A stretch of 63,581 nucleotides of DNA, the filler included, from Dugesia japonica (lineage: Eukaryota), in assembly GCA_001938525.1 (NCBI GenBank). It is 6 parts of 6 records of this genome, joined end to end, with 100 filler letters (N's around TTAATTAATTAA, not from the genome) between each part and the next. Parts side by side here need not be neighbours in the genome. Positions count along the whole stretch, not along the records: positions 1 to 8,744 come from MQRL01604080.1; 5 more parts are not named here. One strand, 5' to 3'. A program made the position numbers and the translations under genes. This document shows, in pieces, positions 745 to 55,567 of this stretch (position 1 is its first letter; every line of letters starts with the position of its first letter). A model generated the notes under the pieces. The model saw only the letters and a program-made list of their open reading frames with translations, was not told the origin of the DNA and ran no database searches.

Positions 745-1100
745 CTAACCACCCGACTATCCAAGAATACAACTTGTTTATTGCAGTCATTAGATCAAGG
801 GATAATTTCAACTTTTAAGAAACTGAACATCAAACGAACCTTAACATATATTTTAGAACAAATGAAAAATGATAAATCTAGCACCAATTATGGATTCTTG
901 TAAAAATATTACAATTTTAGATTGTGTTAAGCATGTTGGAGTGTCACATACCGAAATTAAGAAATCAACGCTCAATGCCTGCTGGAAAAACTTTAGGCCA
1001 GATGTAGTTAAAGGTGAGAATTTAAGATTACCATTGGAGCATGAATATTTTCAGATAACAAAGATGGTGCATACAATGGGATAAGGTTTCGAGGATTTTG
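745..1100 (+). pseudogene. pogo/Tigger DDE_1 transposase C-terminal fragment
   Basis: Reads NTTCLLQSLDQGIISTFKK (Tigger PNTTSxxQPxDQGII motif), then frameshifts into ...TILDCV...LNACWKN (ORF 869-1084). Confidence 0.75.
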
Positions 1101-2267
1101 CCGATAGGCTTTCAATACGTAAAAATCAAAGAGCTTTGATAATAATTTTTTTAAAAGATTAGAAATTAAAATAATTAGACAGCTGATTAGTTGAATGCCA
1201 AATAAAATTTAAACAAATTGAGTAATTTTAGAATTGAAATAATGCAACAGAATTTTAATTTTAAATACTTGTCTAATCAAACATTTTATCTAGTATTATA
1301 AAATAATTCAACATTAGTATTTTCCTGCAAATTTGACATGTATTTTGATATATCAAAAGATATTTAAGTTATAAATTATGCAGATTTACTTAATTAATAA
1401 ATTTGATTTAATACATCAGTTCATAAAGTTAGACTGAATTAACTAAAACCAGCGATATAAATTGATTCCATTTATTAAATATTACTAATATAAAGTGGTT
1501 TGTAATTTGAGAAATTGAAGCTTCAAGTTAACAATTATCACAAACACATTTTATTTAAAAATATATATATAATTTCCGAGAACTAGATTAGACATCATAG
1601 AAGCTTGAAATTGCTTTGATTAAATATTTTTAATATTAGCNNNNNNNNNNNNNNNNNNNNNNNNNNNNNNNNNNNNNNNNNNNNNNNNNNAATCAAACAT
1701 TTTATCTAGTATTATAAAATAATTCAACATTAGTATTTTCCTGCAAATTTGACATGTATTTTGAGAATATATCAAAAGATATTTAAGTTATAAATTATGT
1801 AGATTTACTTAATTAATAAATTTGATTTAATACATCAGTTCATAAAGTTAGACTGAATTAACTAAAACCAGCGATATAAATTGATTCCATTTATTAAATA
1901 TTACTAATATAAAGTGGTTTGTAATTTGAGAAATTGAAGCTTCAAGTTAACAATTATCACAAACACATTTTATTTAAAAATATATATATAATTTCCGAGA
2001 ACTAGATTAGACATCATAGAAGCTTGAAATTGCTTTGATTAAATATTTTTAATATTAGCAAAACAAATACAGTAAAATAAGAAAACTAACTTCGAAAATG
2101 TGGAAAATGTAAAAAATGAATACTTGATTTAGTTATCAAATAACAAAGTATGCGATATTTTTGAAGTTAAATCGAAATTAAGCAGAAATTTTTAACTAGG
2201 ATTTCAATATTTTAAAAAATATAATTTTGTATTAATATTATAAATAAAAGTATTATATTCTATCAAA

Positions 2268-2680
2268 ATGTCAAGTAATCAAGATATAATAGAAAAACGA
2301 CATGCCTTTACGGACTTTGAGGATAAATACATCGGCAAACTTCGACGGTAAGTGGCATGATTAGGCGCCATATTGAATTTTTTTAAATTTAAAGTTTTTG
2401 TATGTAATCANGCTGTTTAGTTATTTTATTTTATTATAATTATTAAATTGTGTTAAAATGATTTAGTAAAAAAAATTTCATTGCATGACTTCGTTATTTT
2501 CCATGAAAATTTCAACATAAACTTTTCCAGCTGATAACGTGGTATTCAAGGTCATACTTTGTATATAAAAATAATATCCCTAATAGCAACGAAAGGCGCA
2601 GAATGGAAAGTATAAACATTGGATTTGAAACTCTCAAGCAGCTTTTGCCAATGACTATAGATGGTGAAAAGTTAAGCAAA
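2268..2680 (+). CDS. TFAP4: TFAP4/AP-4 (cropped)-like bHLH transcription factor, first exons (2268-2347 and 2551-2680); remainder not found
   Basis: Exon reads NSNERRRMESINIGFETLKQLLPMTIDGEKLSK, matching the AP-4 basic/helix1/loop consensus (NSNERRRMQSINAGFQSLKTLIPHTDGEKLSK); GT donor at 2681. Upstream ATG exon ends at GTAAGT (2348) and joins in frame via the AG at 2549-2550. Confidence 0.8.
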
Positions 2681-4553
2681 GTAATTACATAATTTATGAT
2701 TTTATAATTCAAAATTCTATTATTGAAGCAATAATCATTATTATTTTTAATTATAAACTATTTGTTCTATGATTTACTTTATCAAACTTTATCAAAATTA
2801 GGATTTCTAATAACGTGGGCGTTTTTAACATTAAGAAATTTCAACAGTATTGAAAATAAAAATTTTTATTTCAGAGTATAAATTAATTTTTTTGCCATTT
2901 TTAATGAGTAAAATAAATCAATGTTTCTGATAGATTATTGAAAAGTTTTATTATTTGAAACGATTAAGTCAACCAGCGAGAAGTTATGATCTTGAGGTGA
3001 TTGAGAAACGAATTTATTATACAGTGGAATTTCTGAGAATTCTTTGTTATCCTGAAGAACAGAATCTTTATCAATTAATCCGAATTTAAGGTCATGATGC
3101 GTGCTCGAAGAGGATGAGCTAAACGATGTGGTGTAATCACGGACGGATCCTTGAATTTTTCAAAAGGGGACAATATTTTTATTTTAGTGAAAATTTAATT
3201 AATAAATCGTAAATCTTTATTTGCAAGTNNNNNNNNNNNNNNNNNNNNNNNNNNNNNNNNNNNNNNNNNNNNNNNNNNCAAAAGAAATATTACACTTATA
3301 ATATACGTATATAACAATAACATTACTTACTATTGCAATCAGAACTAAAAAAATGTGTTTAATTATCTATCAATACAATAATAAACTGACACGAATCGTC
3401 AAATCACGCAATATTTACAAATCAATGAAATCACTGAACGTAACTCAACGAAAGTTGAGAACAGACTAATTGTGACGGAAACTTTTGAAAATAAAAAAGC
3501 TTCGACTTCAAATCAAACATTTGTTCATATTTCTCAGTAAGAGATTATTTTTAATTAAAAGTTTCCCAACGTTTATTGTTAAGATTCATAGTTGCATAGG
3601 GTTTGAGTACCAACCTTTTACACTGTTGGGTTTATGTGGTTTATGTTATNNNNNNNNNNNNNNNNNNNNNNNNNNNNNNNNNNNNNNNNNNNNNNNNNNG
3701 ACTAATTGTGACGGAAACTTTTGAAAATAAAAAAGCTTCGACTTCAAATCAAACATTTGTTCATATTTCTCAGGAAGAGATTATTTTTAATTAAAAGTTT
3801 CCCAACGTTTGTTGTTAAGATTCATAGTTGCATAGTGTTTGAGTACCAACCTTTTACACTGTTGGGTTTCCTGATCTTATATATTTATGTGGGTAGCTGT
3901 TATGTGTTGTTATATAGTTTTTGGTCAAAGAAATTAATACAGTGGTTCTCAAACTGTTCGCCGTGGCACCCTAGGTTGCTGTATCTGTGTCACAGGGTAG
4001 CCGTGACAATTGTCCAACATTAGAAATGTATAAAAGTAATAAATTCGAAGAACAAATAAAATTCTATTAACTCTTGTTCGCAATAATATAATTTTTGAAT
4101 AATATGATATAATTAACCCATAAGTCAAAAACTTCCATAATAATTTAACAATATTTTGATTAACGTTTAAAATTAAGTTTTTTGGTCCCATTTTGTTACA
4201 TTATAAAAATATTGATTTCCTTAAATACCGATAAAATTTTTTTGGATACAAAGAACAAAATCTTTGGTCCCGAAATGTTCACTTTATCCGGATTCTACTG
4301 TATATATAGTNNNNNNNNNNNNNNNNNNNNNNNNNNNNNNNNNNNNNNNNNNNNNNNNNNAAAACTTCCATAATAATTGGACAATATTTTGATTTACTTT
4401 TAAAATTAAGTTTTTTGGTCCCTTTTTGTTACATTACAAAAATATTGATTTCCTTAAATACAGATAATTTATTTTGGATACAAAGAAAAAAATCTTTGGT
4501 CCCGAAATGTTCACTTTATCCGGATTCTACTGTATATATAGTGATATATATTA

Positions 4554-4759: not shown

Positions 4760-6091
4760 TAATTGTAAAAAACTGATATTTAGTGCTAATATAATATATT
4801 AAATTAAATGACTAAATAATTAAATGGAATGACAAATACTGTATGTCATCGGAATTAGTGTAAATTTTTAATTTATCTATTTTTATCAGTAACATTTGAA
4901 ATAATTACGTAAAAGTAGTTTTAATATTTCAAACAGCAAATAATAATCATAAAAAACGTAATAAGCAATAAATAAATTATGTAACAGTTGGATAATATAA
5001 TATAATTAAAAATTTTAATTGAAAAAATGCATTTTGAATTTTCTATCGAAAATATAAAAGTATGCGCCCACTGATTTATTTTATAATTTTGTTGGGCTGG
5101 AACACCAAAAATTACTCGAGTTAATAAAGGAATAGAGAATAGCGAAAATGGCTGAAATGACAAAGAATNNNNNNNNNNNNNNNNNNNNNNNNNNNNNNNN
5201 NNNNNNNNNNNNNNNNNNNNATTATTATTATTGTTATTATTATTATGTAATTATTATTATTATAATTATTATGGCGTATTTTGAGAAATATCAAAAAAAT
5301 GAAAATTGGGCGTGTTACAATTTCAGTGTTACAAAAAACGAAAAGTATATTTAAAGAAAGGCAATGATAAATAGGATAATAAAAATAAAATACGATAATA
5401 TAATAATTTATTAACAAGGTCTCTATGACCCATTTTATTTATTATAATAATGGATATTATCCATTTAATATTATTAAGTAAATCGGTCCAGTCATCAGTC
5501 CTTGTCTGGTTGACGAAAAATAAAACGAAAATCATCAGCAGATTAGCTGATTCATCCTGAGTCAGACAAGTACTTTTCCTCAGCAACGAGAAAGTTCATC
5601 GAGGTCACATGAGGTGACTGTCGAACGTTCCAGAATCTGGAAAATACGAGTTGTGGTGCGCCGAATTCACTGCCCAGAGGAGGAAAATAGGCTCACTGAC
5701 AACAGAGTACCAGCCAATCAAATACCGGAGTTTGGAAATCCACAAATCAAATACCGCTAACGAGTCAGATCCAAGATTTTTGTGTTCCCTAACAATCATA
5801 AAACTAGGAGACGCAAAGGAAAATGATCACTCTTTACTTTCTTATTTCCAAATTTTAAGAATTGCAAATTAAGGAGAAGTGCTACCATTTTTGAAAATAT
5901 TAANTTTATTGTTTGCGTTGAAAATTTTATCTACCATAATCATTTTATTTGGAAAACTCTTTTGGATTCAAACAAGGAAACTTAAAAGTAATTTTTTTCT
6001 ATTTATGGTATTGATTTAAAACGTTGAGGTATAATTTAAATGAATTCCGAGTGTCCTAATCGAGTCGTGCTCCCAGAAAAAAAAACAAAAG

Positions 6092-6430
6092 AATTGAAGC
6101 AGAAATATTTGAAAAATTCATTGTGAAAATTGAGAAAAGTATTATGCAAAAATTGAAACAGAAATATTTGACAAATTCATTATAAGAATTGAGTAAAGAA
6201 TTATGTAAGAATTGAAGCAGAAATATTTGACAAATTCATTGTAAGAATTGCGAAGAGTACTATGCAAAAAATGAGGCAGAGATATGTGACAAATTAATTG
6301 TGAAAACTAAGAAAAGTATTATGCTAAAATTGAAGCAAAGATATTGGGCGAATGGGTGGTGAAAACTGAGAAAGTTATTAGTCCGAAAGTGAAACAGAGG
6401 TAGGACAAATAAATTGAGGAAGCTAAGAAT
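6092..6430. repeat. Minisatellite, ~59-bp period, ~6 copies degenerating rightwards
   Basis: AATTGAAGCAGAAATATTTG-like units start near 6092, 6151, 6210, 6269, 6328 and 6387. Confidence 0.8.
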
Positions 6431-6989
6431 TTAATGTGGCAAGGAGAATCAAAATATTTGGTGAATCGCTAGTGCAAATGAGGATGTTATCGTGGGGAAA
6501 TGAATCGAGTATATTTGAGGAGTAATGGTATGAGAGTCAGTTCGTCGACACGAATGGGAGCATGTTTGAAAACTAATCAAGGAAAAGGATAAAATTATTT
6601 TGGTGTGAATACTTTGTGTAACGTGTGTCTGGGAGCTCGATGGGTGTTTTCATGTTACCTATTGTTATCTTTTGATTTTGTTATGATTAACCGTTNNNNN
6701 NNNNNNNNNNNNNNNNNNNNNNNNNNNNNNNNNNNNNNNNNNNNNGGGAGCTCGATGGGTGTTTTCATGTTACCTATTGTTATCTTTTGATTTTGTTATG
6801 ATTAACCGTTTAATTGGATAAATATTATATTTTCATATGTTTACTGGGTTTATATTGTTTTATTTTCTTTTCCATAGATTATAATTTATAATTTAAATAC
6901 TGAAGAATTAATAATAACTAATGAACAATCTATATAGTTAGGTAATCGGAATTTTATNTACGTACTCCAATGAAATATTCTGGTAATGA

Positions 6990-8630
6990 TTATCGTGTAT
7001 AAAATTAAGGATATCTTTTCAGAATTCCGGACGGTGGAGGACGAGGAAAGATGGTGGTCTACGATTGTCATCTTCTCTGGTCCGTCACTTAGGCATGAGG
7101 ACGAAGCCATGATAGGCCGCAGGCCGAAGAAACGGCGGTGTTTTAAGTAGTTAAAATATTTTTTTGTTGTTTGTCTTCGATTGGCTATGTGAAATATATT
7201 TAATATCAATGATAGAAAACCAATTAATTAATTCATTTTTAACAGAATTATGACCAAGTATTTCGAGCCGCATATTCCGTTGGTACTGGCCAATGACGGG
7301 GACGAAGGGACCTTTTGGATCCCATGGAGGAACACCGTGGAATTACTTGACAAACATAAGAAACTTTACGAGACAGATAAACAGTCANTGAAGGCCAGAC
7401 AACGAGAACTATTGAGACAGAATCTGGAATTGAGGCACCAGTTAGAAACGGCCCGTGTCGAAAATGAAAAACTCAAACTCCAGGTGTCACAATGGCAATT
7501 AGAATTTCAGGCAACAGCGCGGGATATTGCCATAGCCACGCAACAGCAGATGGAACATCGACACGTGGTGGAGAAAATTGAAGAGAGGGTGTTACGGCAA
7601 TTGTTGGACGACAGTGGGGTCACGGCTGAGGTTCGAGACCCAGTGATCGTCAAAGTAGAGTCGATAAGTTAATAAATGTATTAATGTGTTCAAGAGTCGG
7701 AATTGTTTGTTAAAATACTAATCGTGATATGTATGTCACATTATGGTCTGCATTTATTTTGGGGTCATAGGTTTAAACGATATTAGTTAATCGTTATTTT
7801 CTTTCTTAGTAAAAGTACAATTGAGGAGTGAATTTTTATTACGTTAGTTTTTTTTTCGATCTAGGTCTTCGGATGGAATTTTTAATTGNAATGATTGCTC
7901 CCTGTTATTAGTTTTATTCACACCTATATTAATTGAAACTAGTTTTATTTAATTATCTCTTAATTTTAGTGAACAAATCGAGTGAGGAGATGATGCCAAA
8001 AAGAGAGGTGGTACTATTACAAAGGAAGTGGAAGGATGATCGGCGAGAGTTATGAAATGAGATTTTAAGTTTAAAAGGCCAGTTAAATAAAGCCTCATCC
8101 AAGTTTGCACAATTTAAAGAGAAGGAGATGGCTCTTCAACAGGCCAATCGACTCATGGCCGATGTAATTAAGATCTATGCAGATCGTGAGGCCACCATGT
8201 TCCTCACGTTGCGGACGTTGTAGTTAAATTATCGGTCCTCTGCAGAATCAACCGAAACCATGGAGCAGACCGTGGATCTGGATGCCTAACCACCAACGAG
8301 GTCATGTACATATAAAAATAAATATTAATGCCTGTGTCTAGCATACCTTGATTTTCGTTGAATTTTATTTGTGACAGTAGAACTATAATAGCCACCTTTT
8401 ACTGAGCATAAAGAGAATCATTGCTGTCCGGGTTAAAATATTTAATGAGTAAGACGCGATACCGCAAAGTCGCGCTGGACCCGAGGTAAAGGGGCATGTC
8501 ACAGAGGTGACATAAACGCTTGTGGTTTTTAGGTATGCCCCTAGACAGATAAATGAGTTGTTGATTATTAAAAGCGAGATCCGCGAAATTCGATGAGAAA
8601 GTTTAAAACACCAAATCCTAAAAACCCAAC
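6990..8630 (+). other. Unclassified repeated cassette, copy 1: coiled-coil ORF1 (7250-7672), degraded ORF2 (~7990-8290), structured motif (8451-8549)
   Basis: ORF2 KEKEMALQQANRLMADVIKIYADR matches KERDLALSQTCRAMADIIKTYMDR at 11165-11479; TTAACAG|AAT acceptor shared with copy 2; downstream motif shared with copies 2 and 3. Confidence 0.6.
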
Positions 8631-8744
8631 AATTTTAAATAGTTTCAGATAATCTTTGTTTTTGTGTAATATTTATATTTTCGAAGATTCACAATTATAA
8701 TGCAAACAAATTATAGTTGTAAATTCGGTTTACTAAAAACATTT

Positions 8745-10119: not shown

Positions 10120-11830
10120 TAGTGTAGCTAACAGGAGGATCGATAATCACCTGGAGGAAGTTGGCTACTCACAGACAAAACAGTTTGCCTAAAAAAAATA
10201 TTATCTTCAAGATGCCTGGACAGTAAAATGATGAGAACTGCTAAATAGTAAGCCAGCTCCGTGCGGCATGATGAGCGATCGATAGCATGTTATTCAAAGA
10301 TCTGGTATCTGATGGGTACTATTTTATTAATGCAATAACAATTATTGAATTATATACTTGATATAATTATAATCACGACACAATACTATTATTTAACAGA
10401 ATGATACGGAAAATTATGCAAGCAGATGCCAACAAATGTTTAACAGAGGGATGGTCCTTCTCGACGAACGTGATAAACACCATGTCAGATATGTGAAACT
10501 CCCTTGGAGAATTTGGAACAGATAAAGACCCATGGTGGATTGTTCAGGACCGTATTCATCAAAAAGATATTCAATTGATAATTATGAAAGAGCAAATCAA
10601 CCAGCAGGAGGAAACTCTTCCACAAAATAAATAACATTGGAGCAGCTTCACCAAATAGTAGAACAACAAGAACAGGATTACAATAAACGGTTACTTGAGG
10701 TAACTAAATGGCAGCAGGAGCGCGAAAAAGAATTGGTCTCTTTACTGATTCGGACAACAGNNNNNNNNNNNCAACAGCAACATTTGATTCGAACAATGCG
10801 GACAACATAAACCGAGGCCGAAGAGTTTACAAAGCTGACAGAAAGGTTATTGACCCGAGTGGAAACGACCTTATAGAAAATTCTTGCACCGTTGGATGAA
10901 ATTGACAATGTGTGAATAACCGAAGTTTAATCTAAATACAATATAGTTTTAGTTTGATCATTGTTTTGTCTTTGATTTTCATTCATATTTGACAACAGCA
11001 TTATAAATAAATGAAGCNATTAGAAAGATTTAAAGATAAATTCAGTACCAAATTACATTGATTTCGACTTCTAAAAAATATTGTTAAATAATATGATGAA
11101 TAATTTTACATTTGCAAAAATAGTTGAATATAGATAATTAAAATTATAAAATATTACATATCAATTGATTACAGTGACGGATCCAAGGAAACTCACTGAT
11201 ACCTCAATGACAGACAACAGAGTAAAATGGTTCTCCATACAGAAGAATTTAAAGAGTGAGATCACGGATCAGCAACAAAGGAATGCACAACTCAGAAGCA
11301 AAGTTGATAAGATGAAAGAAAGAGATCTGGCGCTATCACAAACATGCCGAGCCATGGCAGATATTATTAAGACCTACATGGATCGGGCAGGAACACTGAT
11401 TTCCACAGATCGTACTCTTACCCAGGTGTCAAGACCAACCAAGGAGATCCAAAAAGAAATCATTAATATGGATGAGTAANNNNNNNNNNNNNNNNNNNNN
11501 NNNNNNNNNNNNNNNNNNNNNNNNNNNNNAGTTTCTTTGCAAATTGTTTAATTGGAAGGTTTATTGTTAATAACAACAAATATCATCAATAGATTGAGAG
11601 CCGCATTAAATAGAAATTGCATATCTAAGATGGGGTACAGCATAGTCCCACTGAATCCAGGAAAAGAAGGATCGGGTTACTAGAAAGAGTAGCACAAATT
11701 TCTGTGGTTGCTAGGTGTCATACCCTCAGACAGAAAAGATATGCCGGAGAAGTAATTATGATCAAGAGATTAAAAATAAAGAACACTAAAATCAAATATT
11801 AAAACAACATCAAAAGCCTAGCAACTCAAT
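10120..11830 (+). other. Unclassified repeated cassette, copy 2: degraded ORF1 (~10400-10915), ORF2 (11165-11479), structured motif (11627-11734)
   Basis: Same ORF order, peptide similarity and downstream motif as 6990-8630 and 26030-27370. Confidence 0.6.
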
Positions 11831-12789
11831 AATTGGACGATTTTTATGACAAGGTAGCATCAGTAAACACTGATGCAATCATGGAAAGTATTTTATCGTG
11901 GAGATGACCTCTAAAAGTTCATCGAACGATGTGATTTATATTTCGATACAAAAATCATCACACAGAGAGGTGAACAAGGAAGGTTTGTTTCCTGTATGGT
12001 TGATGAGAATCTCTTGGAAATATGTACAAAGACTAAAGAAACTCGAGGGATTTGAAGCTCTTCTGCTTTTTGAAAATAAACTAGATGTAATTTAAGATTT
12101 CCAGTCGTATTGGCAAAAATGTTGAGACATAGTTTTAAAATAGTAGAAAACTTAGTAAAAAGATTTTTCTTTTCTCTTACGAGAAAGAGGGTTAGAGTAA
12201 GTATTGTTAGTCTGCACAAAAAGTAAATAATTGGAAGAAGTAATTTTGAAAAATCAGAAACCATATAAATCTATCAGTTCAAGGAACTAAGAGAATAAGT
12301 CAAAGTAGCTAAAAACTATGCGAATATAATATAATGTAATAATATAATATAACAAAAAGTTGCAAATAATAATCAATGAAGACATGCATGACAAGACATA
12401 AAAAAGAAAGTTTTAGGGTGTTGGTCGGGCCATAAATTAAGTCATAACAGGAGATATTTTCCAATAAAATAAAAGAAATGGTATAATGTTGGACTAGTTA
12501 TTAGAAGGTTATGCAGGAGATGAGGTGTAAACGATATTAAAATGGTGGACATATGCAGAAGAGTGAAAAGAATGAAAAGAACAAACCTTAAATTTGTAAC
12601 TGTTGGAGGACCAGGAAAACAATAAATTCGATACATTTGCGGATCGTTACAAAATAAATAAAATTCAAATATATAAATTCAAAGGCAAATTTTAGAATAT
12701 AAATTTCCGAAGGCAACATCTATACATATGTGAAATTGTTTAAATGAATTATTTAAAAGAAATGCTTCTAAGGTTTTAAAATATTTTTA

Positions 12790-14120
12790 TGGCAGATACT
12801 TTTGATCCAAGAAAACACATTTTGTAAAACATTTCATTCCAATAGTTGGTGATCTTATTCTACAACAACCTCTACGTCAACCAATAAATCTTGAACAGAA
12901 GATTGATGAATTGATTGGGCATCTGATAGAAAGCAATATTATCAAAGAATGATGAAGTGATTGGAATTTTTATGTTAATTTTTGGTAAAAAGTATGGCGC
13001 GATCAGACTGTGCTAAGACTTTAGAATGTTGAATGATTCTACAAAAAGTTTTAAATCCCAATGACAGATCTATTCATCTGTAACTGTCTTTGAAGAAATA
13101 TTCTTCAATGGTATTAACGCTATATATCTAGAAATAACATCGATGATTCCTAAATCTCGGAATATGGTAGTGGCCCTGTTATATCGCAACATATCAAATG
13201 GTTCTGTCACTGTAAAGGAATTTTTGATATTGTATCTAATTTTATTTTCCTGCTTTCTCTTAGCACGTGGAATACAATTTGCAATAAATTTCTCCGTATC
13301 TTTTTTCATGTTTATCCATTCATTATATCTCTTGAAATTATTCAAAGTTTGTTTAGCGTTTAGATGGCCTCATCGTTCGTGAAAATATTTGAAAATGTCA
13401 TTAAGTTTCTGTTCATTATATTCTTAATGAGTATCTTTTAATTCATTGATTTGTCGATAACCTTCATCATTTGAATCGCTCTGGTTGTACTTTGACACTT
13501 TGAAAGACAAAAGAAGCTAAACTATAAAATAATAAATAAAGTATTAACAGAAATTAAGAATTCTGGTCTAAGAGTTATTCCGGAGAAATGTCAATTCATG
13601 CGAAAGGAGATCAAATTTTTGGGACACGTTATCAGCGAAGAAGGTGTCAAAACAGATCCGACTAAGATAGAAGCAATTAAGAACTTTGGTAAACCAAACT
13701 ACGTTTAGAAAATGAGAAGCTTTTTGGGAATTTGCAATTACTATCACAAAGTTTATTAAAGATTATTCGAAAAAAGTTAGATTGCTGGAACAACTGTGTA
13801 GTGGGCCGAGTAACAAGAAAATTGAATGGGCGAACAAATTAGGAGACGTTTTATATGGAATGAAAGAAGCACTAAAGATGTCTCCAATATTATGTTTTCT
13901 AGATATAAATAGAAAATTAATTTGGACACGGATGCGAGTTTCGATACGATTGGGGCAGTACTATCTCAAAGGGACAACGATGGACAAGAAAGAGTAATTG
14001 CATATGGGTCACACGCAGTGACGAGCCATGAAAAGGATATTGTACTACGCGGAAAGAATTACAAGCAATTTACTATTTTTGTATTCATTTCAAACATTAC
14101 TTATATGGGAAGAGATTTAT
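12790..14120 (+). mobile_element. Degenerate Ty3/Gypsy pol (RT-RNase H) with an inverted integrase fragment inserted at ~13070-13500
   Basis: IRLCxDFRMLN, EKCQFMRKEIKFLGHVIS, SFLGICNYY and DTDASFDTIGAVLSQ motifs; the minus strand reads LGIIDVISRYIALIPLKNISSKTV (integrase core). Confidence 0.9.
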
Positions 14121-14450
14121 AGCACTTCCATTTATTCCTGAAGAGGATTTGATTGCGACCTTTAAACACTTAGTTGAAAGTTCCTCCATTTTGCTAATTG
14201 ATTTTGCACAATACCTTGGAAAATACTATGTTAACCTCGAGTTTAATGGTTATTTTTGGAAAAATTCAAATGTTAGGTTTAAGGTTAATACTTAGAATTT
14301 TTATAATTCTGTTTTGTCTGTTCAGAAAAGGACAAACAATGCCGTGGAGAGTAGGCATTCACGATTTCAAAAGGCTTGCATTACTAAACATTCAACAAAT
14401 TGGAAGTTAATCTAACTCTTACAAAATAAAGAAAGTGTTAATTTCACAGA
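14121..14450 (+). pseudogene. MULE (Mutator) transposase C-terminal fragment
   Basis: ALPFIPEEDL...DFAQYLGKYY and RTNNAVESRHSRF resemble the MULE ALxFLP and RTNNxxEGWH motifs. Confidence 0.65.
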
Positions 14451-26029: not shown

Positions 26030-27370
26030 TTTATAAGTTGAGTTGGGTTTCGAGGTTTTTGATGTTGTTATTTTTTCATTGATACTTTCCATTGATTCTC
26101 TTGTTTGTTATTCTTCTTGATATTGTTATTCTTTATATTACAATCTTTTAGGAGTAGATACAACAAAGCCAGCAGAAATTTGACAACCCCTCGTTCATTG
26201 TACCATCTACCCTGAGTCCATGTGGGACTATGCGGTATCCCGTATTTGTTTTATTCTTTCATCTTTGACTGCAGTTATTTCTTTTGATTATTTGTTTCTT
26301 AGGTCTGAAACTCTCATAAAGATGTCTATTATAAATAAAAATATATTTACATAAAAATTTATAATTCTTCAATGATTATGACTTCCGTTCTGTTTTTTCG
26401 AGAGACTAATTTATGGACTATTGCTATAATGACTCTTTTTTAAACTGCATAAGGCTTCATGGTCTCGGCCAAATCTCATTCCTTGAGTTTGGTATTATTT
26501 TCATGCAGCCAGTATTTGTTTGCTTCAACTTCAATAATTTCGCTTGCAACTTCTTTTGCAAGGAGCACCACTTTTTTTCTTAGTTCTGCCATTGATGTAG
26601 AATCACTTATTGTCGACTCTAAATCGAAATATAATATGTTAAATCATATTTCGACATAAAGTGAAGGTAATTTATGATTATCTGGTTATTATATTCATCA
26701 TTATTTGAAGCATTAATGAACAAAAGAAATTTTTTAATAACGCTTATTAAATACCTGATAGCAAAAACAAGAGAATAGTTTTACAGAAAAATTATATTGA
26801 CAGCAACAAATAGGATCACATATCTGTCACAATTCCATCTAGTGCAAGAAATATTGATTGAAGTACCGCCTCGATATAGGTCATCAATTTCTCGGAGCAT
26901 TTCTGGCATTCTTCAATCTCTAAAGACATGCTTTCCTTCTTCTCTATTAATCCTATCTGCTGTCGTAGATGTTGCTTGATGCGACCGAGGATATTCTCGA
27001 GTTCTTATTCTCTTTCATTCTACGAAATAATAACCTCTGTAAGTCCTTCCTGACATTTTCCCTCGCGCATTGTGGAAACTATCGACAAAACCTACTGGTT
27101 GTCGAGTCTCATCTAAAAATTGTTAAGTTCGGCGATTTTCTCCAAGTTTTTTTATTTCTGTAGCAATAATTTCTCCTTTGGAGTTGCGACCTGAATCTCT
27201 TTTTAATGAAGTTGATCGTTCATTATTTACCAAGACTAGGAATTGGTTCCCTCGAACCCCAGTTAATCCCATGAATTTGGATTCTCATTTGTTTGGTTAG
27301 TATAGAAAGACCAGCCCTCATTACTTAATGCTAACTCAGCTTCAACCTGAACCATTCGACGTGACATCTA
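26030..27370 (-). other. Unclassified repeated cassette, copy 3 (degraded ORF1 ~26850-27330, ORF2 ~26430-26620, structured motif 26145-26248)
   Basis: QQHLRQQ...EIEECQKCSEKLMTYIEAVL resembles copy 2 QQHLIRTM...EAEEFTKLTERLLTRVETTL; KLKE*DLA resembles KMKERDLA; GCATAGTCCCAC shared with copy 2. Confidence 0.55.
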
Positions 27371-28053
27371 GATAATAAAAAGTAATTCATATTTATAATA
27401 ATGGCTAATTCATAATATTGTCGGTCATTATTTATGAAATACTGCATGAGTTGTTATATATGGTGAAAAACTTTGAATTTCATCTCATATTCGATCAATT
27501 CAATTTATTTATATAATTACGGATGGTCAATACTCGCCAATAACTGATATCAATTTGATGTTTAATACCATGTCGATCATACTTTCGTTACTTTAAGACA
27601 AAAATATTTGTGAATATTTGCTCGTTAATAACTACACTATTTTGATTGGCAGACATGCAATCAATTGTCTCAATCATCAAAGTCGTCTATAACTTATTCA
27701 AGTAATAATTCCTTTAAAATCATCTAAAACCTTTAACCAAATCTGAAACATTATATTTAATGAATGCTCAACTTTGTGATTGTAATGATTGGTCCCCCTG
27801 CTTAATCCTAGATTTTCTTATCAACCAGTAAAAATGTATTAAACATATATTTAACAATGCTTAATTAGATATCTAAGGTTCAATTAGATTATATGTAATA
27901 TAAAATGATGAGTGATTAAAACCAGGATTATAAATTATATTATAATGAACACATAATATACGATTCAATTAAATTAAAATAAATAAATGACAAAAAATAA
28001 GAATGAACTAAATGATAAATCAATTAAGAATAAACTAAATAATATTACTAGGT

Positions 28054-32440: not shown

Positions 32441-32597
32441 AAGTAACCCCAAATTAAGTACTATTACCTAATGATGCAATTTATGATGCAATTTTTAAAT
32501 TCCCAACTAAATACGTTAGGATTAAATTTCGTTACGTCACGGCGGGAGGATGGTTACTGAATGTGTGCGTGGTGCGGTCCGCCACTATCTATCTACT
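32441..32597 (-). mobile_element. Polinton/Maverick-type terminus (rest of the element lost at the contig edge)
   Basis: Ends CGCCACTATCTATCTACT (reverse complement AGTAGATAGATAGTGGCG), near-identical to the termini at 41000 and 49230. Confidence 0.6.
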
Positions 32598-34328
32598 AAG
32601 GTCAAAGTCATATAGTATTCTGCGTTCTATTTGGTTGATTTGTTTCAAGATCAAAGTGTCATAGTATCCTGTGATCTGATTGGTTGATTTGTTTTCAGAT
32701 AATATTGATATAGTATCATGCAATATGATTGATCGATTTATATTAAGGTCAAAGTGATTTAGTATCCTGCGTTATGATTGGTTGAAGCCTTCCAAGGTCA
32801 AAGTGATTTAGTATCTTGTGATCTGATTGAACGATATGTTTCAAGGTTAAAGTGATATAGTATCATGTGATATGTTGGTTGATGTGTTTCAAGGTCAATG
32901 TGATATAGTATCCTGCGATCTGATTAGTCAATTTGTTTCAATGTCAAAGTGATAATGTATCATGCGTTATGATTGGTCGAAGCCTTTCAATCTCAAACTG
33001 ATATAGGATCCTGCGATTTGATTAGTCGATTGGTTTCAAGATCAAAATGATATTGTATCCTACGTTCTGACTTGTCACTACATTTCAAGGTCAACGTTAT
33101 ATAGTATCCTGCGTTCTGATTGTTCGACGTGTTTTAAGGTTAAAGTGATATAATTTGATGCGATAGGATTAGTTATTTAAATTCAAGGTCAAAGTAACAT
33201 AGTATCCTACGTTCTGATTGATAGATGTTTTTCAATGTCAAAATGATGTAGTATCTTGTGTTCTGATTGGTAGATTTGTTTCAGGGTCAAAATGATATTG
33301 TATCAAACTATATGATTTATCGATTTATATCAAGGTCAAAGTGATTTAGTATCATGCGTTATGATTGGTCGAAGTCTTTCAAGATCAAAGTGATATAGTA
33401 TCATGCGATATGGTTGTTGAAGTGTTTCATGGTCAAAGTGTTAAAGTATCATGCCATCTGATTGATCGATGCGTTTCAAAGTCAAAGTGATCTAGTATCA
33501 TGCGTTCAGACTGGTCGATGTTTTTCAATGTCAAAATAAAAAGTATGCTGCGTTCTCATTGGTCAATTTGTTTCAAGGTCAAATTAATATAGTATCCTTC
33601 GATCTGATTGGTCAATTTGTTTCAAGGTCAAAGTGATGTAGTATTCTGTGAACTGATTGGTCGATGTGTTTCAAAATCAAAGTGATATAGTATCATGCGA
33701 TATGATTGTTGAATTGTTTCAATGTCAAAGTGATATAGTTTCTTGTGTTCTGATTAGTAGATTTGTTTCAGGGTCAAAATGATATTGTATCAAACGATAT
33801 AATTGATCGATTTATATCAAGGTCAAAGTGATTTAGTATCATGAGTTCTGATTGTTCGACGTGTTTTAAGGTTAAAGTGATATGATATTATGCGATATGA
33901 TTGGTTATTTAAATTCAAGGTCAAAGTCATATAGTATCCTGAGTTCTGATTGGTCGCTTTGTTTCAAGATCAAAGTGTTATAGTATCCTACGTTCTGATT
34001 GATAAATGTTTTTCAATGTCAAAATGATGTAGTATCTTGTGTTCTGATTGGTAGATTTGTTTCAAAGTCAAAGTGATATTGTATCATGCTGTATGATTAT
34101 CGATTTATTTCATCGTAAAATTGATATTGAATCTTGCGTTATGATTGGTCGAAGTCTTTCAATGTCAAAGTGATATATTATCTGGCGATCTGATTGGTCG
34201 ATTTCTTTCAACATCAAAGTGATATAATGTCTTGCGATATGATTGTTAAAGTGTTTCAAGGTCAAAGTGTCAAAGTATCATGCGATATGATTGATAGATT
34301 TTTTCCAAGGTCAAGGTGATATAGTATA
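32598..34328. repeat. 49-bp satellite, ~35 diverged copies
   Basis: Consensus TCAAGGTCAAAGTGATATAGTATCCTGCGATCTGATTGGTCGATTTGTT repeated head-to-tail without spacers. Confidence 0.95.
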
Positions 34329-35263
34329 TTGAGTAGAGAAAAACAGAAATCGAGTTGATGTAGTTAGAAATTGCGCGAGAGTTACGAATCGAAATTATCA
34401 GAAATTGATAAATCATACAGTGAATAGACATGTAGAACAAAGAAAGGAAGAACAAAATATCGAATTCTGGTCTTGTCATAAGATCGGTCATGAGTAGTGT
34501 ATAAATGGCGTTTTCCCAACAAGGTTGTATCCCTTCCTTCACATACATGTTTGTTATGGGAAAAAATAGTGTATAGTGAATATAAATAAACCGCTTCTCG
34601 GGAAAACGCCATTTATACACTACTTGTGTTGATGGTTTAATTTCTAGATTTAGATTTTTTTATCTTTAGAAAAATAGAAATATGAATGCTAACTCAAACA
34701 GAAAAACAAATAAAATAATAAGTAGCTAAAAGTTGAATATTTTATTTTTTAAATAAAGTAGCGTGTAGAATATTTTATTTTTCTATTTATATTTGCAAAT
34801 ATGTTTTTAATTAAATTAATAAAAAGATAAAATATTTATTAATTAAATTTTATAAATTTATAAACGGAAAAATGTTTATCTATATTGTCATATAAAAAAA
34901 TTCTAAAATAAATTAACTTAAAAATTTTTTATGTTAGTAACTTTGTTATTATCTTTTTAGGAAAATGTTGCATTTATATAAAGAATGTTTATAATTATTA
35001 GGAAAGTAGATTGAAGTAGCGGTATCCTATGAATATATACTTTCTCAAAACTCACTCCTGAAGCTTGGTATTGACAAGACGAAAATTTAAGCACCTTGTT
35101 AAAGGAGTTTATGATTCTGATTTGCGTGTTTACTGTCACACAAATGACTTGCATGTAAATTAGATGATTAACAATGCATGAGATGGTGAAGAACCGGTTA
35201 TAAAAATAATAAATAAATTGGAGTTTTGCTATTTTTAATTTTATTATTTTTTATTATTAGAAA

Positions 35264-39204: not shown

Positions 39205-39420
39205 TTCGTCTTTACTATAAAATCTGCCTAGAATTTTTTCATTGTCTAAATCAGTAATTCCATAAGTAAAAGGTTTTGTATTATAAACTCGAGTAACTAC
39301 AAATATTTCATTTGTCCATTTGGCTGTAAAACATTTTTCAAATTTATATTTATATTTAAAGATTCTATCTAACTCTATCTCCTATTTCAAACTTTTGTTT
39401 TTCTTTTATAAAATGTTTCT
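39205..39420 (-). pseudogene. Polinton integrase C-terminal fragment
   Basis: KFEIGDRVR...KYKFEKCFTAKWTNEIFVV...PFTYGITDLDNEKILGRFY; catalytic core deleted up to the TIR. Confidence 0.82.
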
Positions 39421-39739
39421 ATTTTACTAAAGATAAAAAAATCTAAATCTAAAAATTAAACCATCAACCCAAGTAGTGTATAAATGGCGTTTTCCCGGGA
39501 AATTGTTTATTTATATTCACTATACACTATTTTTTCCCATAACAAACATGTATGTAAAGGAAGGGATACAACCTTGTTGGGAAAACGCCATTTATACACG
39601 ATTGTCATGTCATACGAGCGGTCATACTAAAGTAAATTGTCTTACAAAAACAGTAATAGAGTGCTGAAGTTGTCATAAAACAAGACATATAAGTCGAGAT
39701 TGCTCAATTAAATATCATTACTCAATCTACAATCTTTAA

Positions 39740-42829: not shown

Positions 42830-43237
42830 CTAAATTTTGTCAAGCAAATTAAAGAAATCTAAAGTAGTTTTATTCACAAATTATTGAAAATGCAAATTTT
42901 TAAGCCCTAGTATTACTTGTTTTCTTGTTGAAGGATCATAAAGGATTACATAAAGGATCATAGTTTACAAGTCTTAAAGCAGGAAATAACTCCGGTTCGA
43001 ACCAACAGTTGACTATTCTTGCTAATTTATACAAACTTATTGAAACTCCCATATTTACGACAATTGTTAGCGATTGTAATTGTAAATTCTTTATACCATA
43101 GGTGTTCAAATCATACAGTTCCAATGGTTTTTTACAAGCCATTATTATACATTTTCCTGATCTGAAGAATATAATTGTATATTTGTCACTTTTGACTTGG
43201 AATTGACATGGTTTGCCTATAGGAAAGCTCATTTTCT
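42830..43237 (-). pseudogene. TATA-binding protein (TBP)-like gene carried by element B; 5'-truncated, one frameshift
   Basis: YTIIFFRSGKCIIMACK (cf. TALIFSSGKMVCTGAK), LQLQSLTIVVNMGVSISLYKLA (cf. [21 protein letters not shown]), FEPELFPAL (cf. YEPELFPGL) and, after the frameshift, STRKQVILGLK (cf. VSGKVVLTGAK): four TBP motifs in the correct order. Confidence 0.88.
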
Positions 43238-43606
43238 TTGTATCAGAAAACGAACAAAGAAAACGATTTCAATAATTTATTCACAAAAATATCGAGGCAT
43301 CGTAATGTTACTGTAATATTTATTACACAAAATCTATTTCATCAAGGAGACAGTCATAGAACCCGTAATTTAAACGTGCAATATTTAGTTCTATTCCAAA
43401 ATCCTAGGGTTCAAACTTTTGTTGATTTTCTATCAAGAAAAGCATATCTAAATAATAGACAATTTCTTATTGAATAGTTTTACGATGCAACGAAAATACC
43501 TCATGGATATCTATTTCTTGACTTTACACAACAATGTCCAGATGACTAAAGATTGAGAACAAATATATTCAATCCAAATAGTATCACAGCATTTAAACAA
43601 AATAGA
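43238..43606 (+). pseudogene. Packaging ATPase of element B, C-terminal half
   Basis: LFTKISRHRNVTVIFITQNLF...RTRNLNVQYLVLFQNPR...DATKIPHGYLFLD...RLRTNIF, the typical Maverick ATPase C-terminus. Confidence 0.9.
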
Positions 43607-43887
43607 TAAGTTTTCCTATTAAAAAATGACAAATTTAAAGAAATTTGTAGTTGACCAAGTAACTGATGGTGTTGTTAATTGCCAAAAAATATCTTTTGAG
43701 AAGAAAAAGTATGGAAAAAAGAAGAAACAATCGCATAAGAAACAACATGTAAATAAGAAGAAACGAGTAAATAAACAGAATGTTTTAAAAACTTACAAAA
43801 CGAAATGAAAAGAAGCTGAAAATGATGAACAGAAAAAAGATATTATTATAAATAAATAAATTATATGTATTAATTTAATAAATAAAG

Positions 43888-44210
43888 ATGAAATTACAAA
43901 GAAGTATTCCGTTTTATACAGCTTTGATTAAATAATGAAACCCTTTTAAAATGAGAATTTTCCAATCATTCCCACCATATTTTATAGATGATTTACTAGA
44001 AATTATTATAAATACTGTTTGCGGTATTGTAGATTTGAGTGCAGTCAAAAGACAAACATTGAAAAAACATTAAAAAAAACTTTATTAACGCTTGTAAACA
44101 CACAATATAGAAAATCAATGAGACGAGTAAGGAATAATCAAGAAGGTAGCTTTATAGCAACATTACTACCAATTGCATTGGCTGCATTAGGCTTAACTTA
44201 TTTCAAATAA
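43888..44210 (+). pseudogene. Small basic Maverick virion-core protein (QxGGFL-type C-terminus)
   Basis: FIDDLLEIIINTVCG...KTLLTLV...NQEGSFIATLLPIAL; paralogous copy at 55180-55495. Confidence 0.7.
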
Positions 44211-44319
44211 ACAATGGTTGACTTTAATATTAATAATTACAATAGAATTAACTCAGATGAGCAATGGGTGGATTGCAATCATTACCCAACTTTGACCGGA
44301 AATTTGCATCAAATTGTTG

Positions 44320-44640
44320 TAATGGAGACAAAAATGAAGACAATATAGACGGATCCAAAAAACCGATCAGGTTTTCAAGGCGTAGAAAAATTGATGAGAG
44401 CAGCTCAAAAAACAAAAACAAAGACCAAAAAGATGTTATCTGGTCATCTAGTGTACAGCCTAAACAAGTCAATGTTGAAAAGATTTCCAACAAGAGCATA
44501 TAAAGCATATAGTATTGATGATTTATGGTAAATGTATCTAATGGAAATGATCCATTATTATTATTCAAAGATTAATAAACTTTACAAGTATATTTTTGTC
44601 TTTTATCGTTTTATTCAATAGATTTACAAGACATGTTNNN
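44320..44640 (+). pseudogene. Maverick integrase N-terminal fragment (element B)
   Basis: DPKNRSGFQGVEKL...YSLNKSMLKRFPTRAYKAYSIDDLW; colinear with 55568-55816. Confidence 0.8.
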
Positions 44641-44750
44641 NNNNNNNNNNNNNNNNNNNNNNNNNNNNNNNNNNNNATGTAAAATAATATAAATACGAAA
44701 ACCAAGTTGAATATTAGCAACACTAATAACATATCAAGACGAAAACTCAG

Positions 44751-45835
44751 ATGAAATCAAATAATTTTTATACGCTTTTATCTAGTAATAGTAGTCCGCT
44801 AGTTCATCCAAATAATACTCCTAGTAATTAGATTGTTGAGCTTCAAAATCCAATTTTCATGAATGGTAGTTAAGAAGTTGCCATGATAGATTTCACCTTT
44901 GTATATTCAGCTATGCCGATTTACAATCAATCTAGGATTGTAAATGAATTATTTAAACTAATTGAGAAGGAACTAATAATTGTTGTTAACAATAAAGAAA
45001 AAAAGTTCTTTTAACTGTTACTAGTAAAGNNNNNNNNNNNNNNNNNNNNNNNNNNNNNNNNNNNNNNNNNAACGAAAATATGATATACTTTAGTAGTGAT
45101 ATTAAATTCCATAGTTTATCATTTGATATTTTAGAAAATTAGGAAAGATTTTCGTACAATAGAGTTTAAGTAATACAATTGGGTAATTTTGTAAATCTTG
45201 ATACTAGTAAATATATTGGTGATAAAACTTTTACTATTCGCTTTCATACTTTTAAAAACGATGATTCTGTTGAACAAATAAATATTAAATATTATTATGC
45301 AATTGTAACTAAACATTATTTTCAATTTGAAAACCGATTTGTATATAAAAGATATAAACCAACTAAATGATTATATTAAGAAAAGCCTTTCAATGTTATT
45401 TAAAACTTTTTCATTAAAGCAAGATGAACTATTTCAATTTACATTATCAAATAAAACTAAAAGTGTTAAATTCAATAAATTCTTAACCTAATAATTAGGA
45501 TTAAAAGAATCGCAATATACTCGATTACATATTAGTGATGAACAACTACAATATGAAAGTATCAAGAAACCTAGAATATTAAAGTGTTATAATGAAATGT
45601 TCATNNNNNNNNNNNNNNNNNNNNNNNNNNNNNNNNNNNNNNNNNNNNNNNNNNNNNNNNNNNNNNNNNNNNNNNNNNNNNNNNNNNNNNNNNNNNNNNN
45701 NNNNNNNNNNNNNNNNNNNTATTTTCTCATCATATATAAACAATATAGAAATCAATATACGTGATGATAGTGGAAAACAAATCAATTTTGCAGAAGACTC
45801 AAAAACTCATTTAAAGTTACATTTTAGAAAAATTA
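44751..45835 (+). pseudogene. Maverick minor capsid protein (penton), element B
   Basis: N-terminus NNFYTLLSSNSSPLVHPNNT...LQNPIFMNGS*EVAMIDF; C-terminus IEINIRDDSGKQINF...THLKLHFRK. Confidence 0.82.
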
Positions 45836-45837
45836 AT

Positions 45838-46255
45838 AAGCAGGTGGAGAATTATCTTACTTTCTTGGGAAATAGTATGAATCTGGTTGGTTATGAACCA
45901 TAGTGAGATTTTCTTTGCCTATTCTTAGACGTATTGGTTCTTTGGGTATGAAAACCGCTCAAGATTTACTAACTAATGATGGAAAAATACTACCTATATT
46001 AAAATCAAATGCATTAGCTGAACTATGAAATGTAGTTTCTTCCTTACATAGTGGAGGTACCAGTATGATCCCAAAAGTAGCAGGTATATTGCCAGAAAGT
46101 ATAACAAATAAAATACCATCTGAAATAACTAATATGCTAACAAATCAACCCAAAACAGAACCAACTAATAAAAAACGTTAACAATCACATGCATCACGTA
46201 TAAACCAACGAATGAGAGGACATGGAACAATATTTTAAAAATGATTTGCTCCAGA
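45838..46255 (+). pseudogene. Maverick core protein (GGxLxYFxG-type) followed by the first codons of MCP (ATG 46241)
   Basis: AGGELSYF..GK*YESGWL*TIVRFSLPILRRIG...RGHGTIF; the next ATG reads MICSR, matching IICSK of the MCP in element C. Confidence 0.7.
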
Positions 46256-55500: not shown

Positions 55501-55567
55501 TACATAAACAATGGGTAACTTGCAATCGTTGTCAAGAATTTATCTCGAATTTATGTCAAATTGTTGA

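What the first reader, a model, noticed from the sequence alone, without database searches (positions are those of the whole stretch)
8451..8549. Covarying, pseudoknot-like non-coding motif downstream of a repeated ORF cassette (3 copies)
Seen: hairpin 1 is CGCGAT-accgcaaa-GTCGCG here, TGGGGT-acagcata-GTCCCA at 11631 and CGGGAT-accgcata-GTCCCA at ~26242 (minus), with compensatory C-G/G-C and C-G/T-A swaps. An outer stem follows (GGGGCAT/ATGCCCC; GGGTAGATG/TATCTACTC in copy 3; weak in copy 2). It encloses a variable hairpin and a conserved AAA....TG(C)TGG segment complementary to loop 1 (ACCGCA/TGTGGT in copy 1, imperfect in the others). It does not fit hammerhead, HDV, twister or pistol consensus as I recall them. 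Inference: an undescribed structured RNA or ssDNA element (ribozyme, packaging or 3'-end signal).
Basis: partly seen in the sequence, partly recalled or inferred. Interest (0 to 1): 0.7.

Follow-up and report, generated by a model that had tools for sequence, protein, structure and literature searches.

The report
Knotted RNA in retrotransposon terminal repeats
A folded RNA of about 100–200 letters with two knot-like pairings sits at the end of the long terminal repeats of a group of Gypsy retrotransposons in an AT-rich animal genome, where it probably helps the element pair up, package and start copying its RNA; it matches no catalogued RNA family.

Summary
The motif is real: three divergent copies. 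It is not free-standing. Copy 1 lies at the 3' end of a 3.5-kb solo LTR (5090–8631; 7-bp terminal inverted repeat plus 4-bp target duplication, 1 of 3000 shuffles). Copy 2 lies about 125 nt before a decayed primer-binding-site-like segment and Gypsy gag-pol. The 'ORF cassette' is LTR-borne. Public contigs pile on the motif about 90–140-fold deeper than on the adjacent ORF, in two organisms (not a copy number). It competes with the loop pairing for the same GGU. G·U bias favours the gag-sense strand. No Rfam family, hammerhead core or type-6 IRES layout fits. Covariation on three sequences is not significant (198 of 500 shuffles). Best reading: an R/U5 replication element that works like the Ty1 5' pseudoknot and kissing-loop domain (0.5). 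A new ribozyme class is not excluded (0.13). No function is shown.

The parts
5090..8631 (+). Solo LTR (3,542 bp including two assembly gaps) that carries copy 1
   Evidence: Ends TGTTGGG...CCCAACA with ATTT on both flanks; 1 of 3000 block shuffles gives this (the end was picked among 3 CA candidates and 3 TSD lengths). 3 of the 16 contig pieces shown end at 8630-8631, and depth is 0 in all four runs at 8649-8677.
6092..6380 (+). 59-nt tandem repeat (4.9 copies) inside the LTR
7250..7672 (+). LTR-borne ORF A, 140 aa, coiled-coil-like by eye; acceptor-like AG before it, AATAAA after it
   Evidence: No Pfam family, 0 relatives among 1.84 billion proteins. Not detectably related to the ORF at this place in copies 2 and 3.
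7990..8289 (+). LTR-borne ORF B, about 100 codons, broken by stops, coiled-coil-like
   Evidence: 40% identical to copy-2 ORF B over 65 aa, E 1e-10; no database homologue for the copy-2 form
8384..8391 (+). TATA-like box (also before copy 3, diverged in copy 2); an initiator-like site near 8420 is inferred
   Evidence: alignment A2; consensus recalled; start site not mapped
8424..8434 (+). 5' strands of closing helix Pz (8424-8428 with 8544-8548) and helix P0 (8429-8434 with 8478-8483)
   Evidence: Both in the minimum-energy fold of 8418-8631. Modest alone: 56 and 75 of 1000 shuffles in copy 1, 12 and 40 in copy 3, not seen in copy 2. Common read variants at 8435 and loose ends lengthen P0 (unphased).
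8455..8474 (+). Hairpin P1 with 8-nt loop L1 (8461-8468)
   Evidence: 17 of 18 cells paired, 2 pairs changed on both sides; deepest bin of the read pile
8490..8542 (+). Stem P2 (8490-8497 with 8535-8542) enclosing variable hairpin P3 (8496-8513), AAA and the shared strand
   Evidence: a loose-end consensus shows P3 with two pairs changed on both sides (table 7, agreement 0.82)
8520..8533 (+). Shared strand: 8520-8526 pairs with loop L1 (pk1); 8524-8533 pairs with the LTR-terminal box (pk2); overlap 8524-8526
8549..8616 (+). Variable A/T-rich spacer (about 20-95 nt among relatives) with poly(A)-signal-like hexamers
   Evidence: joints and letters between them; hexamers (weak in such AT-rich DNA)
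8617..8626 (+). LTR-terminal box, pk2 partner, 5 nt before the LTR end
   Evidence: 10 of 10 Watson-Crick pairs, 0 of 2000 shuffles; second depth peak
10390..11479 (+). Copy 2: decayed ORF A and ORF B (11207-11479)
   Evidence: ORF A 31% identical to copy 3 over 101 aa, E 2e-13, read with X at stops
11626..11730 (+). Motif copy 2
11817..11826 (+). Copy-2 terminal box, pairs with 11706-11715
   Evidence: 9 Watson-Crick pairs plus G·U, 1 of 2000 shuffles; this helix is in the minimum-energy fold of 11590-11853
11852..11864 (+). Decayed primer-binding-site-like segment; LTR end inferred at about 11851
   Evidence: 8 of 13 letters as at 62086 in the alignment; tRNA-Leu type is recalled
11885..14121 (+). 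Decayed Ty3/Gypsy gag, reverse transcriptase and RNase H behind copy 2 (stops and frameshifts)
   Evidence: gag homologue P0002 59%, E 8e-14; Pol homologues to E 6e-61; Pfam RVT_1, RT_RNaseH
26148..26247 (-). Motif copy 3 (most decayed)
26046..26055 (-). Copy-3 terminal box; 6 Watson-Crick pairs, 1 G·U, 3 mismatches
   Evidence: not better than chance (1672 of 2000)
26400..27360 (-). Copy 3: decayed ORF B and ORF A

Best explanation
The motif is the structured core of the R/U5 end of long, ORF-bearing LTRs of a group of Ty3/Gypsy retrotransposons, and acts in cis on the element's RNA during replication. Shown: LTR position (copy 1), place before a PBS-like segment and gag-pol (copy 2), conservation far above the flanks, helix P1 and long-range pairing pk2. 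Inferred: transcription starts near 8420, so the domain is the 5' end of the genomic RNA; the 7-nt loop L1 and its complement (8520-8526) pair within one RNA or between two RNAs as a kissing contact that starts dimer formation and packaging; pk2 ties the domain to the LTR end beside the primer binding site, and because pk1 and pk2 share GGU they act as a switch between a translated or unprimed state and a dimeric, primed state. This is how the Ty1 5' domain works, without being related to it in sequence.
For: Solo-LTR signature, 1 of 3000 shuffles, with contig ends at 8630-8631. PBS-like segment and gag directly behind copy 2. Depth on the motif 144x (X1) and 89x (X8) that on ORF B, while the spacer is at 0.9x and 1.8x. 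Motif 62-64% identical between copies against 50-55% for ORF B. pk2 significant in 2 of 3 copies, own pairings 10 and 9 against cross-copy 7 and 8 Watson-Crick pairs. Strand bias 12 G·U to 2 A·C. Analogy: Ty1's first 326 nt form a pseudoknot holding two hairpins with complementary 7-nt motifs needed for retrotransposition (PMC5454406, abstract).
Against: No function was tested. Three sequences give no significant covariation. pk1, P0, Pz and P2 are weak copy by copy, and pk2 fails in copy 3. A gag of the same clade at 62040-62200 has a PBS-like site but no motif before it, so this clade can do without it, unless that LTR was replaced. The start site is not mapped; RNA reads rise where DNA likeness rises, so they do not fix it. 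No 5' LTR end was found for copies 2 and 3. Summed contig depth is not a copy number.
Confidence: 0.5

Rival explanations
1. A self-cleaving ribozyme of a new class in the LTR sets the ends of the element's RNA, as hammerheads do in retrozyme LTRs; pk2 could hold it inactive.
For: Compact multi-helix fold with a loop-loop pairing, invariant single-stranded letters and sharp edges at about 8450 and 8545-8547. Precedent: retrozymes have 4-bp target duplications and a hammerhead in each LTR (PMC6765202, passages).
Against: No hammerhead core on the sense strand even with one mismatch (motif recalled); no Rfam ribozyme; no place where many RNA molecules begin or end among 316 laid reads (fragmented libraries, a weak test). 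Autonomous LTR elements have their own promoter and poly(A) site (recalled).
Confidence: 0.13
2. A 3'-end element: the R copy controls poly(A)-site use, RNA stability or nuclear export, with pk2 hiding the signal in the 5' LTR.
For: Poly(A)-like hexamers lie in the spacer enclosed by pk2 in 3 of 3 copies; pk2 spans them.
Against: Such hexamers are common in DNA this AT-rich; the spacer is not conserved; no poly(A) junction was seen among the loose ends shown (314 not shown).
Confidence: 0.12
3. An internal ribosome entry site or other translation element for gag, possibly factor-independent as in type 6 IRESs.
For: Lies between upstream ORFs and gag; a P0-loop-P1-pseudoknot arm recalls domain 1 of type 6 IRESs; the frame from the end of P2 to the box is kept in copies 1 and 2.
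Against: The L1.1 motifs named in PMC10275262 are not at the matching places; no pseudoknot abuts a first codon; that frame has stops in all three copies, and 1 of 2 full spacer variants (5c) is out of frame; gag homology starts about 125-160 nt downstream.
Confidence: 0.1
4. DNA-level conservation: downstream promoter elements and the integrase end site, with hairpins as by-products.
For: The box lies 5 nt from the LTR end, where integrase constraints act (recalled); TATA-like box upstream.
Against: Paired positions change together over 70-90 nt (pk2) and in P1 and P3; G·U bias on one strand.
Confidence: 0.08
5. A small independent repeat (SINE- or TRIM-like) that inserted into these LTRs.
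For: Depth far above the flanks, with heterogeneous AT-rich loose ends on both sides; 94% of laid RNA reads run on into unlike sequence.
Against: Same place between ORF B and the terminal box in 3 of 3 divergent families, pairing with that box in 2 of 3; no target duplication noted around the motif. Short-LTR or non-autonomous relatives sharing this R/U5 could explain the depth.
Confidence: 0.05
6. Protein-coding conservation or chance.
For: Copies 2 and 3 each have an open frame across the motif (and the printed translations).
Against: The registers differ in the 3' half; copy 1 has a stop; 1- and 2-nt insertions at 8489 occur in 35 and 8 contigs of X1 and 13 and 14 reads of X22.
Confidence: 0.02

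Closest known systems
Ty1 5' TIPIRT domain (long-range pseudoknot plus SL1a/SL3a kissing loops; PMC5454406, abstract)
   Same: 5' end of an LTR-retrotransposon RNA, near the primer binding site; a long-range pairing; two complementary, non-palindromic 7-nt motifs.
   Different: Ty1 is Ty1/copia of yeast, 326 nt and overlapping gag. Here a Gypsy group, about 210 nt, inside the LTR; the complement lies in an internal loop and overlaps the long-range strand. Sequence kinship was not tested; function is untested.
Ty3 5' RNA (PMC11381356, passages)
   Same: Same superfamily; 5' region carries dimer and priming signals.
   Different: Ty3 dimerises through a palindrome and has a split PBS. No GC-rich 6-nt palindrome is shared by the three copies here.
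Retrozymes (hammerhead in each LTR; PMC6765202, passages)
   Same: Structured RNA in a Gypsy-type LTR, 4-bp target duplication.
   Different: No hammerhead core; elements here carry gag-pol and LTR ORFs; LTR ten times longer.
Type 6 (dicistrovirus IGR) IRESs (PMC10275262, PMC13273307, passages)
   Same: Similar size, nested pseudoknots, lies between ORFs, helix-loop-helix-pseudoknot arm.
   Different: No L1.1 motifs in place, no PKI next to a first codon, no Rfam match; lies inside an LTR.
Planarian Burro/GYPSM1 elements (PMC6431247, section 7) and the GLT2 repeat (PMC8532177, passages and Table S1)
   Same: Gypsy-like elements with long LTRs, tandem repeats and accessory ORFs in AT-rich planarian genomes; the GLT2 probe looks by eye like an acceptor plus coiled-coil frame as in ORF B.
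   Different: Copy 2 has a compact gag-pol (about 1 kb from gag to RT), not the 4,873-aa Burro polyprotein. No sequence comparison was made; no RNA motif is mentioned in the text read.
Pistol ribozyme (features recalled)
   Same: Hairpin whose loop pairs with a strand enclosed by a second stem; A-rich linker.
   Different: Order of the inner hairpin and pairing strand is reversed; extra helices; no Rfam match.

Membership tests
Ty3/Gypsy LTR retrotransposon, R/U5 region | LTR bounded by TG...CA with 4-5-bp target duplication | tested here: met
   copy 1: 5090-8631, 7-bp inverted repeat, 4-bp duplication, 1 of 3000 shuffles; not found for copies 2 and 3
Ty3/Gypsy LTR retrotransposon, R/U5 region | PBS directly behind the 5' LTR, then gag | tested here: inconclusive
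   copy 2: decayed segment, 8 of 13 letters as at 62086, followed by gag; no tRNA set was available, tRNA-Leu type recalled
Ty3/Gypsy LTR retrotransposon, R/U5 region | Pol order RT - RNase H - integrase | tested here: met
   RT then RNase H behind copy 2; the Pol proteins that match it carry RT, RNase H and integrase families; integrase follows RNase H in the related element at 49-51 kb
Ty3/Gypsy LTR retrotransposon, R/U5 region | Transcription start and poly(A) site that define R and U5 | tested here: inconclusive
   TATA-like box and hexamers only; no pile-up of read ends
Ty1-like dimer/packaging domain | Long-range pairing at the RNA 5' end | tested here: met
   pk2 in 2 of 3 copies, given the inferred start site
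Ty1-like dimer/packaging domain | Two complementary 7-nt loop motifs | tested here: inconclusive
   7 bp in copy 1, 16 of 21 cells overall; 78, 650, 428 of 1000 shuffles
Ty1-like dimer/packaging domain | Needed for dimer formation, packaging or priming | not testable with these tools
   needs bench work
Hammerhead ribozyme / retrozyme | CUGANGA and GAAA core at a three-way junction (recalled) | tested here: not met
   no match on the sense strand of 3 of 3 copies with up to one mismatch; one 1-mismatch hit on the antisense strand of copy 2 only; no Rfam hit
HDV-like, twister, twister-sister, pistol, hatchet, hairpin ribozymes | Match to the Rfam covariance model or to the strand order of the family | tested here: not met
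   0 hits at gathering score, no ribozyme among 6 hits at E up to 10; strand order compared from memory
Any self-cleaving ribozyme | Site-specific self-cleavage | not testable with these tools
   one search shows no pile-up of ends, a weak test
Type 6 IGR IRES | L1.1a/L1.1b motifs flanking P1.2 | tested here: not met
   motifs from PMC10275262 absent from the loop between P0 and P1 in 3 of 3 copies; some subtypes have other motifs (PMC13273307)
Type 6 IGR IRES | PKI directly before the first codon | tested here: not met
   no conserved helix joins the pk2 loop to sequence behind the box; gag homology starts about 125 nt or more downstream
Burro/GYPSM1 | Giant polyprotein with env-like and accessory domains between gag and pol | tested here: not met
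   gag 11885 to RT about 12815 in copy 2 against PMC6431247 section 7

The most novel reading that the evidence does not exclude
The motif is a new class of self-cleaving (or switchable) ribozyme carried in the LTRs of autonomous Gypsy retrotransposons, present in very many copies in this animal lineage, which sets the RNA ends and is turned off by pairing with the LTR-terminal box.
Probability: 0.13. Interest if true: 0.85.

Novelty: new variant of a known kind. Interest (0 to 1): 0.52.

Why it matters
Leader structures of LTR retrotransposons have been worked out mainly in yeast Ty1 and Ty3 (papers), and packaging signals are said to be hard to find because sequence is not kept (PMC4558846, passage). 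Here one domain is kept in sequence across families whose LTR proteins are 30-40% identical, and a single genome should supply enough copies for a decisive covariation analysis. It would give a small, assayable model of dimer formation and priming in an animal Gypsy group, and a sensitive marker for annotating these LTRs. If it self-cleaves, it is a new ribozyme class.

Tried and rejected
No whole genome is held, so no genome-wide alignment. Covariance model R1 finds only the three training copies in the window; next hit E 0.16. Pattern scans: viral contigs 8 hits, all without the P1 stem and 0 hits; metagenome contigs 0 hits with a strict pattern and 31 hits with a loose one, of which 1 had the outer P1 pairs and none reached nhmmer E below 0.1. 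Related Pol loci: none in viral contigs; one 1.4-kb contig without flanks in genome contigs. ORF A and ORF B: no homologues or usable Atlas hits. Run finder: no RNA holder listed on record; 4 of 24 runs were laid. Run X21 gave only 8 reads. First-mate strand in X22 was about 2.5 to 1 and the library chemistry is unknown, so the strand of the RNA is not read from it. Earlier scan notes: nothing in 3 look-ups. One search used a misregistered pseudoknot string and is superseded; the copy-3 box was misplaced by 2 nt in the helix list and corrected. I first read the motif as an IRES before a non-AUG gag frame and dropped this as the main reading when the LTR end and PBS-like segment appeared. Likenesses to hairpin, twister-sister, HCV IRES and SRP Alu words were noticed from memory and rejected: no Rfam support, different pairing. 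Literature: 8 searches listed no paper describing this motif; three short motif strings had 0 occurrences. The 2018 genome paper that named Burro is not held; it, its supplements and Repbase entries may describe these LTRs.

Full report
Setting. The window is six contigs joined by linkers of Ns, 20-34% G+C per 2 kb, filled with decayed transposons: Gypsy RT and RNase H pieces and integrase pieces. No genome is held. I infer an animal, probably a planarian, from composition, transposon content and the many runs on record for 'organism A'; no call names it.

The observation. The three copies exist as described. Copy 1 alone finds copy 2 at E 2.4e-4 and copy 3 at E 0.011, and the core pattern occurs 3 times against 0.003 expected. 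P1 pairs in 17 of 18 cells with 2 pairs changed on both sides; pk1 pairs in 16 of 21 cells. With three sequences the covariation score does not beat its shuffle control (198 of 500), though sliding the partners drops pairing from 85% to 31-51%. Rfam finds nothing at gathering score and only chance hits around each copy. A covariance model finds no fourth copy in the window.

What reads add. I laid 4 of 24 listed runs on 7895-8744 at 80% likeness. Summed contig depth on 8446-8561 is 144 times (X1) and 89 times (X8, a second organism) that on ORF B; the spacer behind it is at 0.9 and 1.8 times, and the box region at 7 and 3 times. Overlapping short contigs inflate such sums; at single place 8487 the depth is about 30,000 against 1,100-3,600 in ORF B, still near tenfold. 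The edges are sharp (about 8450 and 8545-8547) with mixed AT-rich loose ends. Joints link the motif to the box across shorter spacers of about 20 letters. Insertions of 1 and 2 nt at 8489 are common, which rules out a reading frame. Loose-end consensus words show a P3 with two pairs changed on both sides, a loop variant that turns the G·U of pk1 into A-U, and a longer P0; these are unphased and of modest agreement (0.6-0.85), and 160 variant rows and 314 loose ends were not shown. RNA: 308 reads in X22 and 8 in X21, with no pile-up of ends.

The missed pairing. 8524-8533 is fully complementary to 8617-8626 (0 of 2000 shuffles); in copy 2 both strands differ at two paired places and still pair (9 Watson-Crick plus G·U, 1 of 2000). 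Cross-copy pairing falls to 7 and 8. Copy 3 keeps 7 of 10 in register, with a third pair type at one place, but is not better than chance. pk2 is more stable than pk1 (-11.7 against -7.4 and -16.9 against -2.9 kcal/mol) and shares GGU with it. The fold of 8418-8631 adds a closing helix and P0, giving a three-way junction whose two arms can kiss (z only -1.2); these helices are modest in copies 1 and 3 and not seen in copy 2. Helices hold 12 G·U and 2 A·C, which favours the gag-sense strand (hand-registered, the weak P2, P3 and P0 of some copies left out).

Where it sits. Copy 1 ends 5 nt behind the box in CCCAACA; 3.5 kb upstream is the exact inverted 7-mer, and ATTT flanks both (1 of 3000 shuffles; allow about tenfold for the choice of end and duplication length). 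Three of 16 contig pieces shown end at 8630-8631 and depth then vanishes. Copy 1 is therefore a solo LTR holding a tandem repeat, ORF A, ORF B, a TATA-like box and the motif. In copy 2 the box is followed after 25 nt by a decayed segment matching a PBS-like site at 62086 (8 of 13 letters), then gag, RT and RNase H. LTRs starting TG and ending CA, a tRNA-Leu PBS and 4-bp duplications are reported for flatworm LTR elements (PMC4558846, passages). The gag at 62040-62200 is of the same clade but has no motif before it, so the motif goes with the long-LTR families, not with the whole clade. The LTR ORFs have no database relatives; ORF B is shared by all three copies, ORF A detectably by copies 2 and 3 only.

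How it most likely works. Position, strand and pairing fit a cis-acting domain at the 5' end of the genomic RNA. In Ty1 the first 326 nt form a pseudoknot with two complementary 7-nt loop motifs that start dimer formation, and both are needed for retrotransposition (PMC5454406, abstract); Ty3 uses a palindrome instead (PMC11381356, passages). I propose that loop L1 and its complement play the kissing role and that pk2, anchored next to the PBS, switches it. The start site, the switch and every function are inferred (0.5). Rivals: new ribozyme (0.13; precedent in retrozyme LTRs, PMC6765202 passages, but no known core), 3'-end control (0.12), IRES (0.10; type-6 hallmarks from PMC10275262 and PMC13273307 passages not met), DNA-level elements (0.08), independent small repeat (0.05), coding or chance (0.02).

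Known or new. It works like a retroelement leader domain and is a member of no family I could test. It is not Burro by gene layout (PMC6431247, section 7), though Burro or GLT2 LTRs may share it; this was not compared. Eight literature searches listed no description; PMC11410931 and PMC8532177 were seen as passages (and Table S1 rows of the latter); the 2018 genome paper and Repbase could not be read and may bear on novelty. Scans of viral, metagenome and prokaryote collections found no true copy. Verdict: a real, apparently undescribed, lineage-restricted structured RNA at the end of Gypsy LTRs; new variant of a known kind; interest 0.52.

Noticed in passing
window 7215-8360, 10375-11479, 26400-27400: Each LTR ORF is preceded by an acceptor-like AG after a pyrimidine-rich run, and the copy-1 ORFs are followed by AATAAA: spliced or trans-spliced accessory genes inside an LTR, with no known relatives.
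   Followed up: partly
window 7990-8289 against Table S1 of PMC8532177: The GLT2 probe, read by eye, is antisense to an AT-rich intron-like stretch ending in AG followed by a coiled-coil frame of the same style as ORF B; these LTRs may be kin of GLT2. Not aligned.
   Followed up: no
window 8243-8300: A second short depth peak (32,000 against 2,000-4,000) at the end of ORF B: another stretch shared more widely than its ORF.
   Followed up: no
window 62040-62200: Gypsy gag of the same clade with a PBS-like site at 62086 that reads as the first gag-like codons; about 200 nt of AT-rich DNA and no motif upstream, nested behind another element's RNase H.
   Followed up: partly
window 43000-46100 and 55200-57600: Two related (66-73% identical) decayed stretches with an integrase piece and ATPase- and penton-like frames by eye: Polinton/Maverick-like.
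   Followed up: no
window 34497-34683 and 39413-39599: 187-nt inverted repeat, 95% complementary, 4.7 kb apart: likely ends of a DNA transposon.
   Followed up: no
window 32536-34378: 49-nt tandem array of about 1.8 kb.
   Followed up: no
window 3624 and 3860: Two further matches to the LTR's terminal inverted repeat (10 nt) on both sides of an assembly gap, without the target duplication.
   Followed up: partly
L010-L038: 22 of the 31 chance metagenome hits are one palindromic repeat family in gut-type assemblies, unrelated to the motif.
   Followed up: no
P0003-P0122: Many metagenome contigs of about 2-6 kb encode Pol of this Gypsy clade at up to 62% RNase H identity; their LTRs could show how far the motif reaches, but their DNA could not be fetched.
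   Followed up: partly
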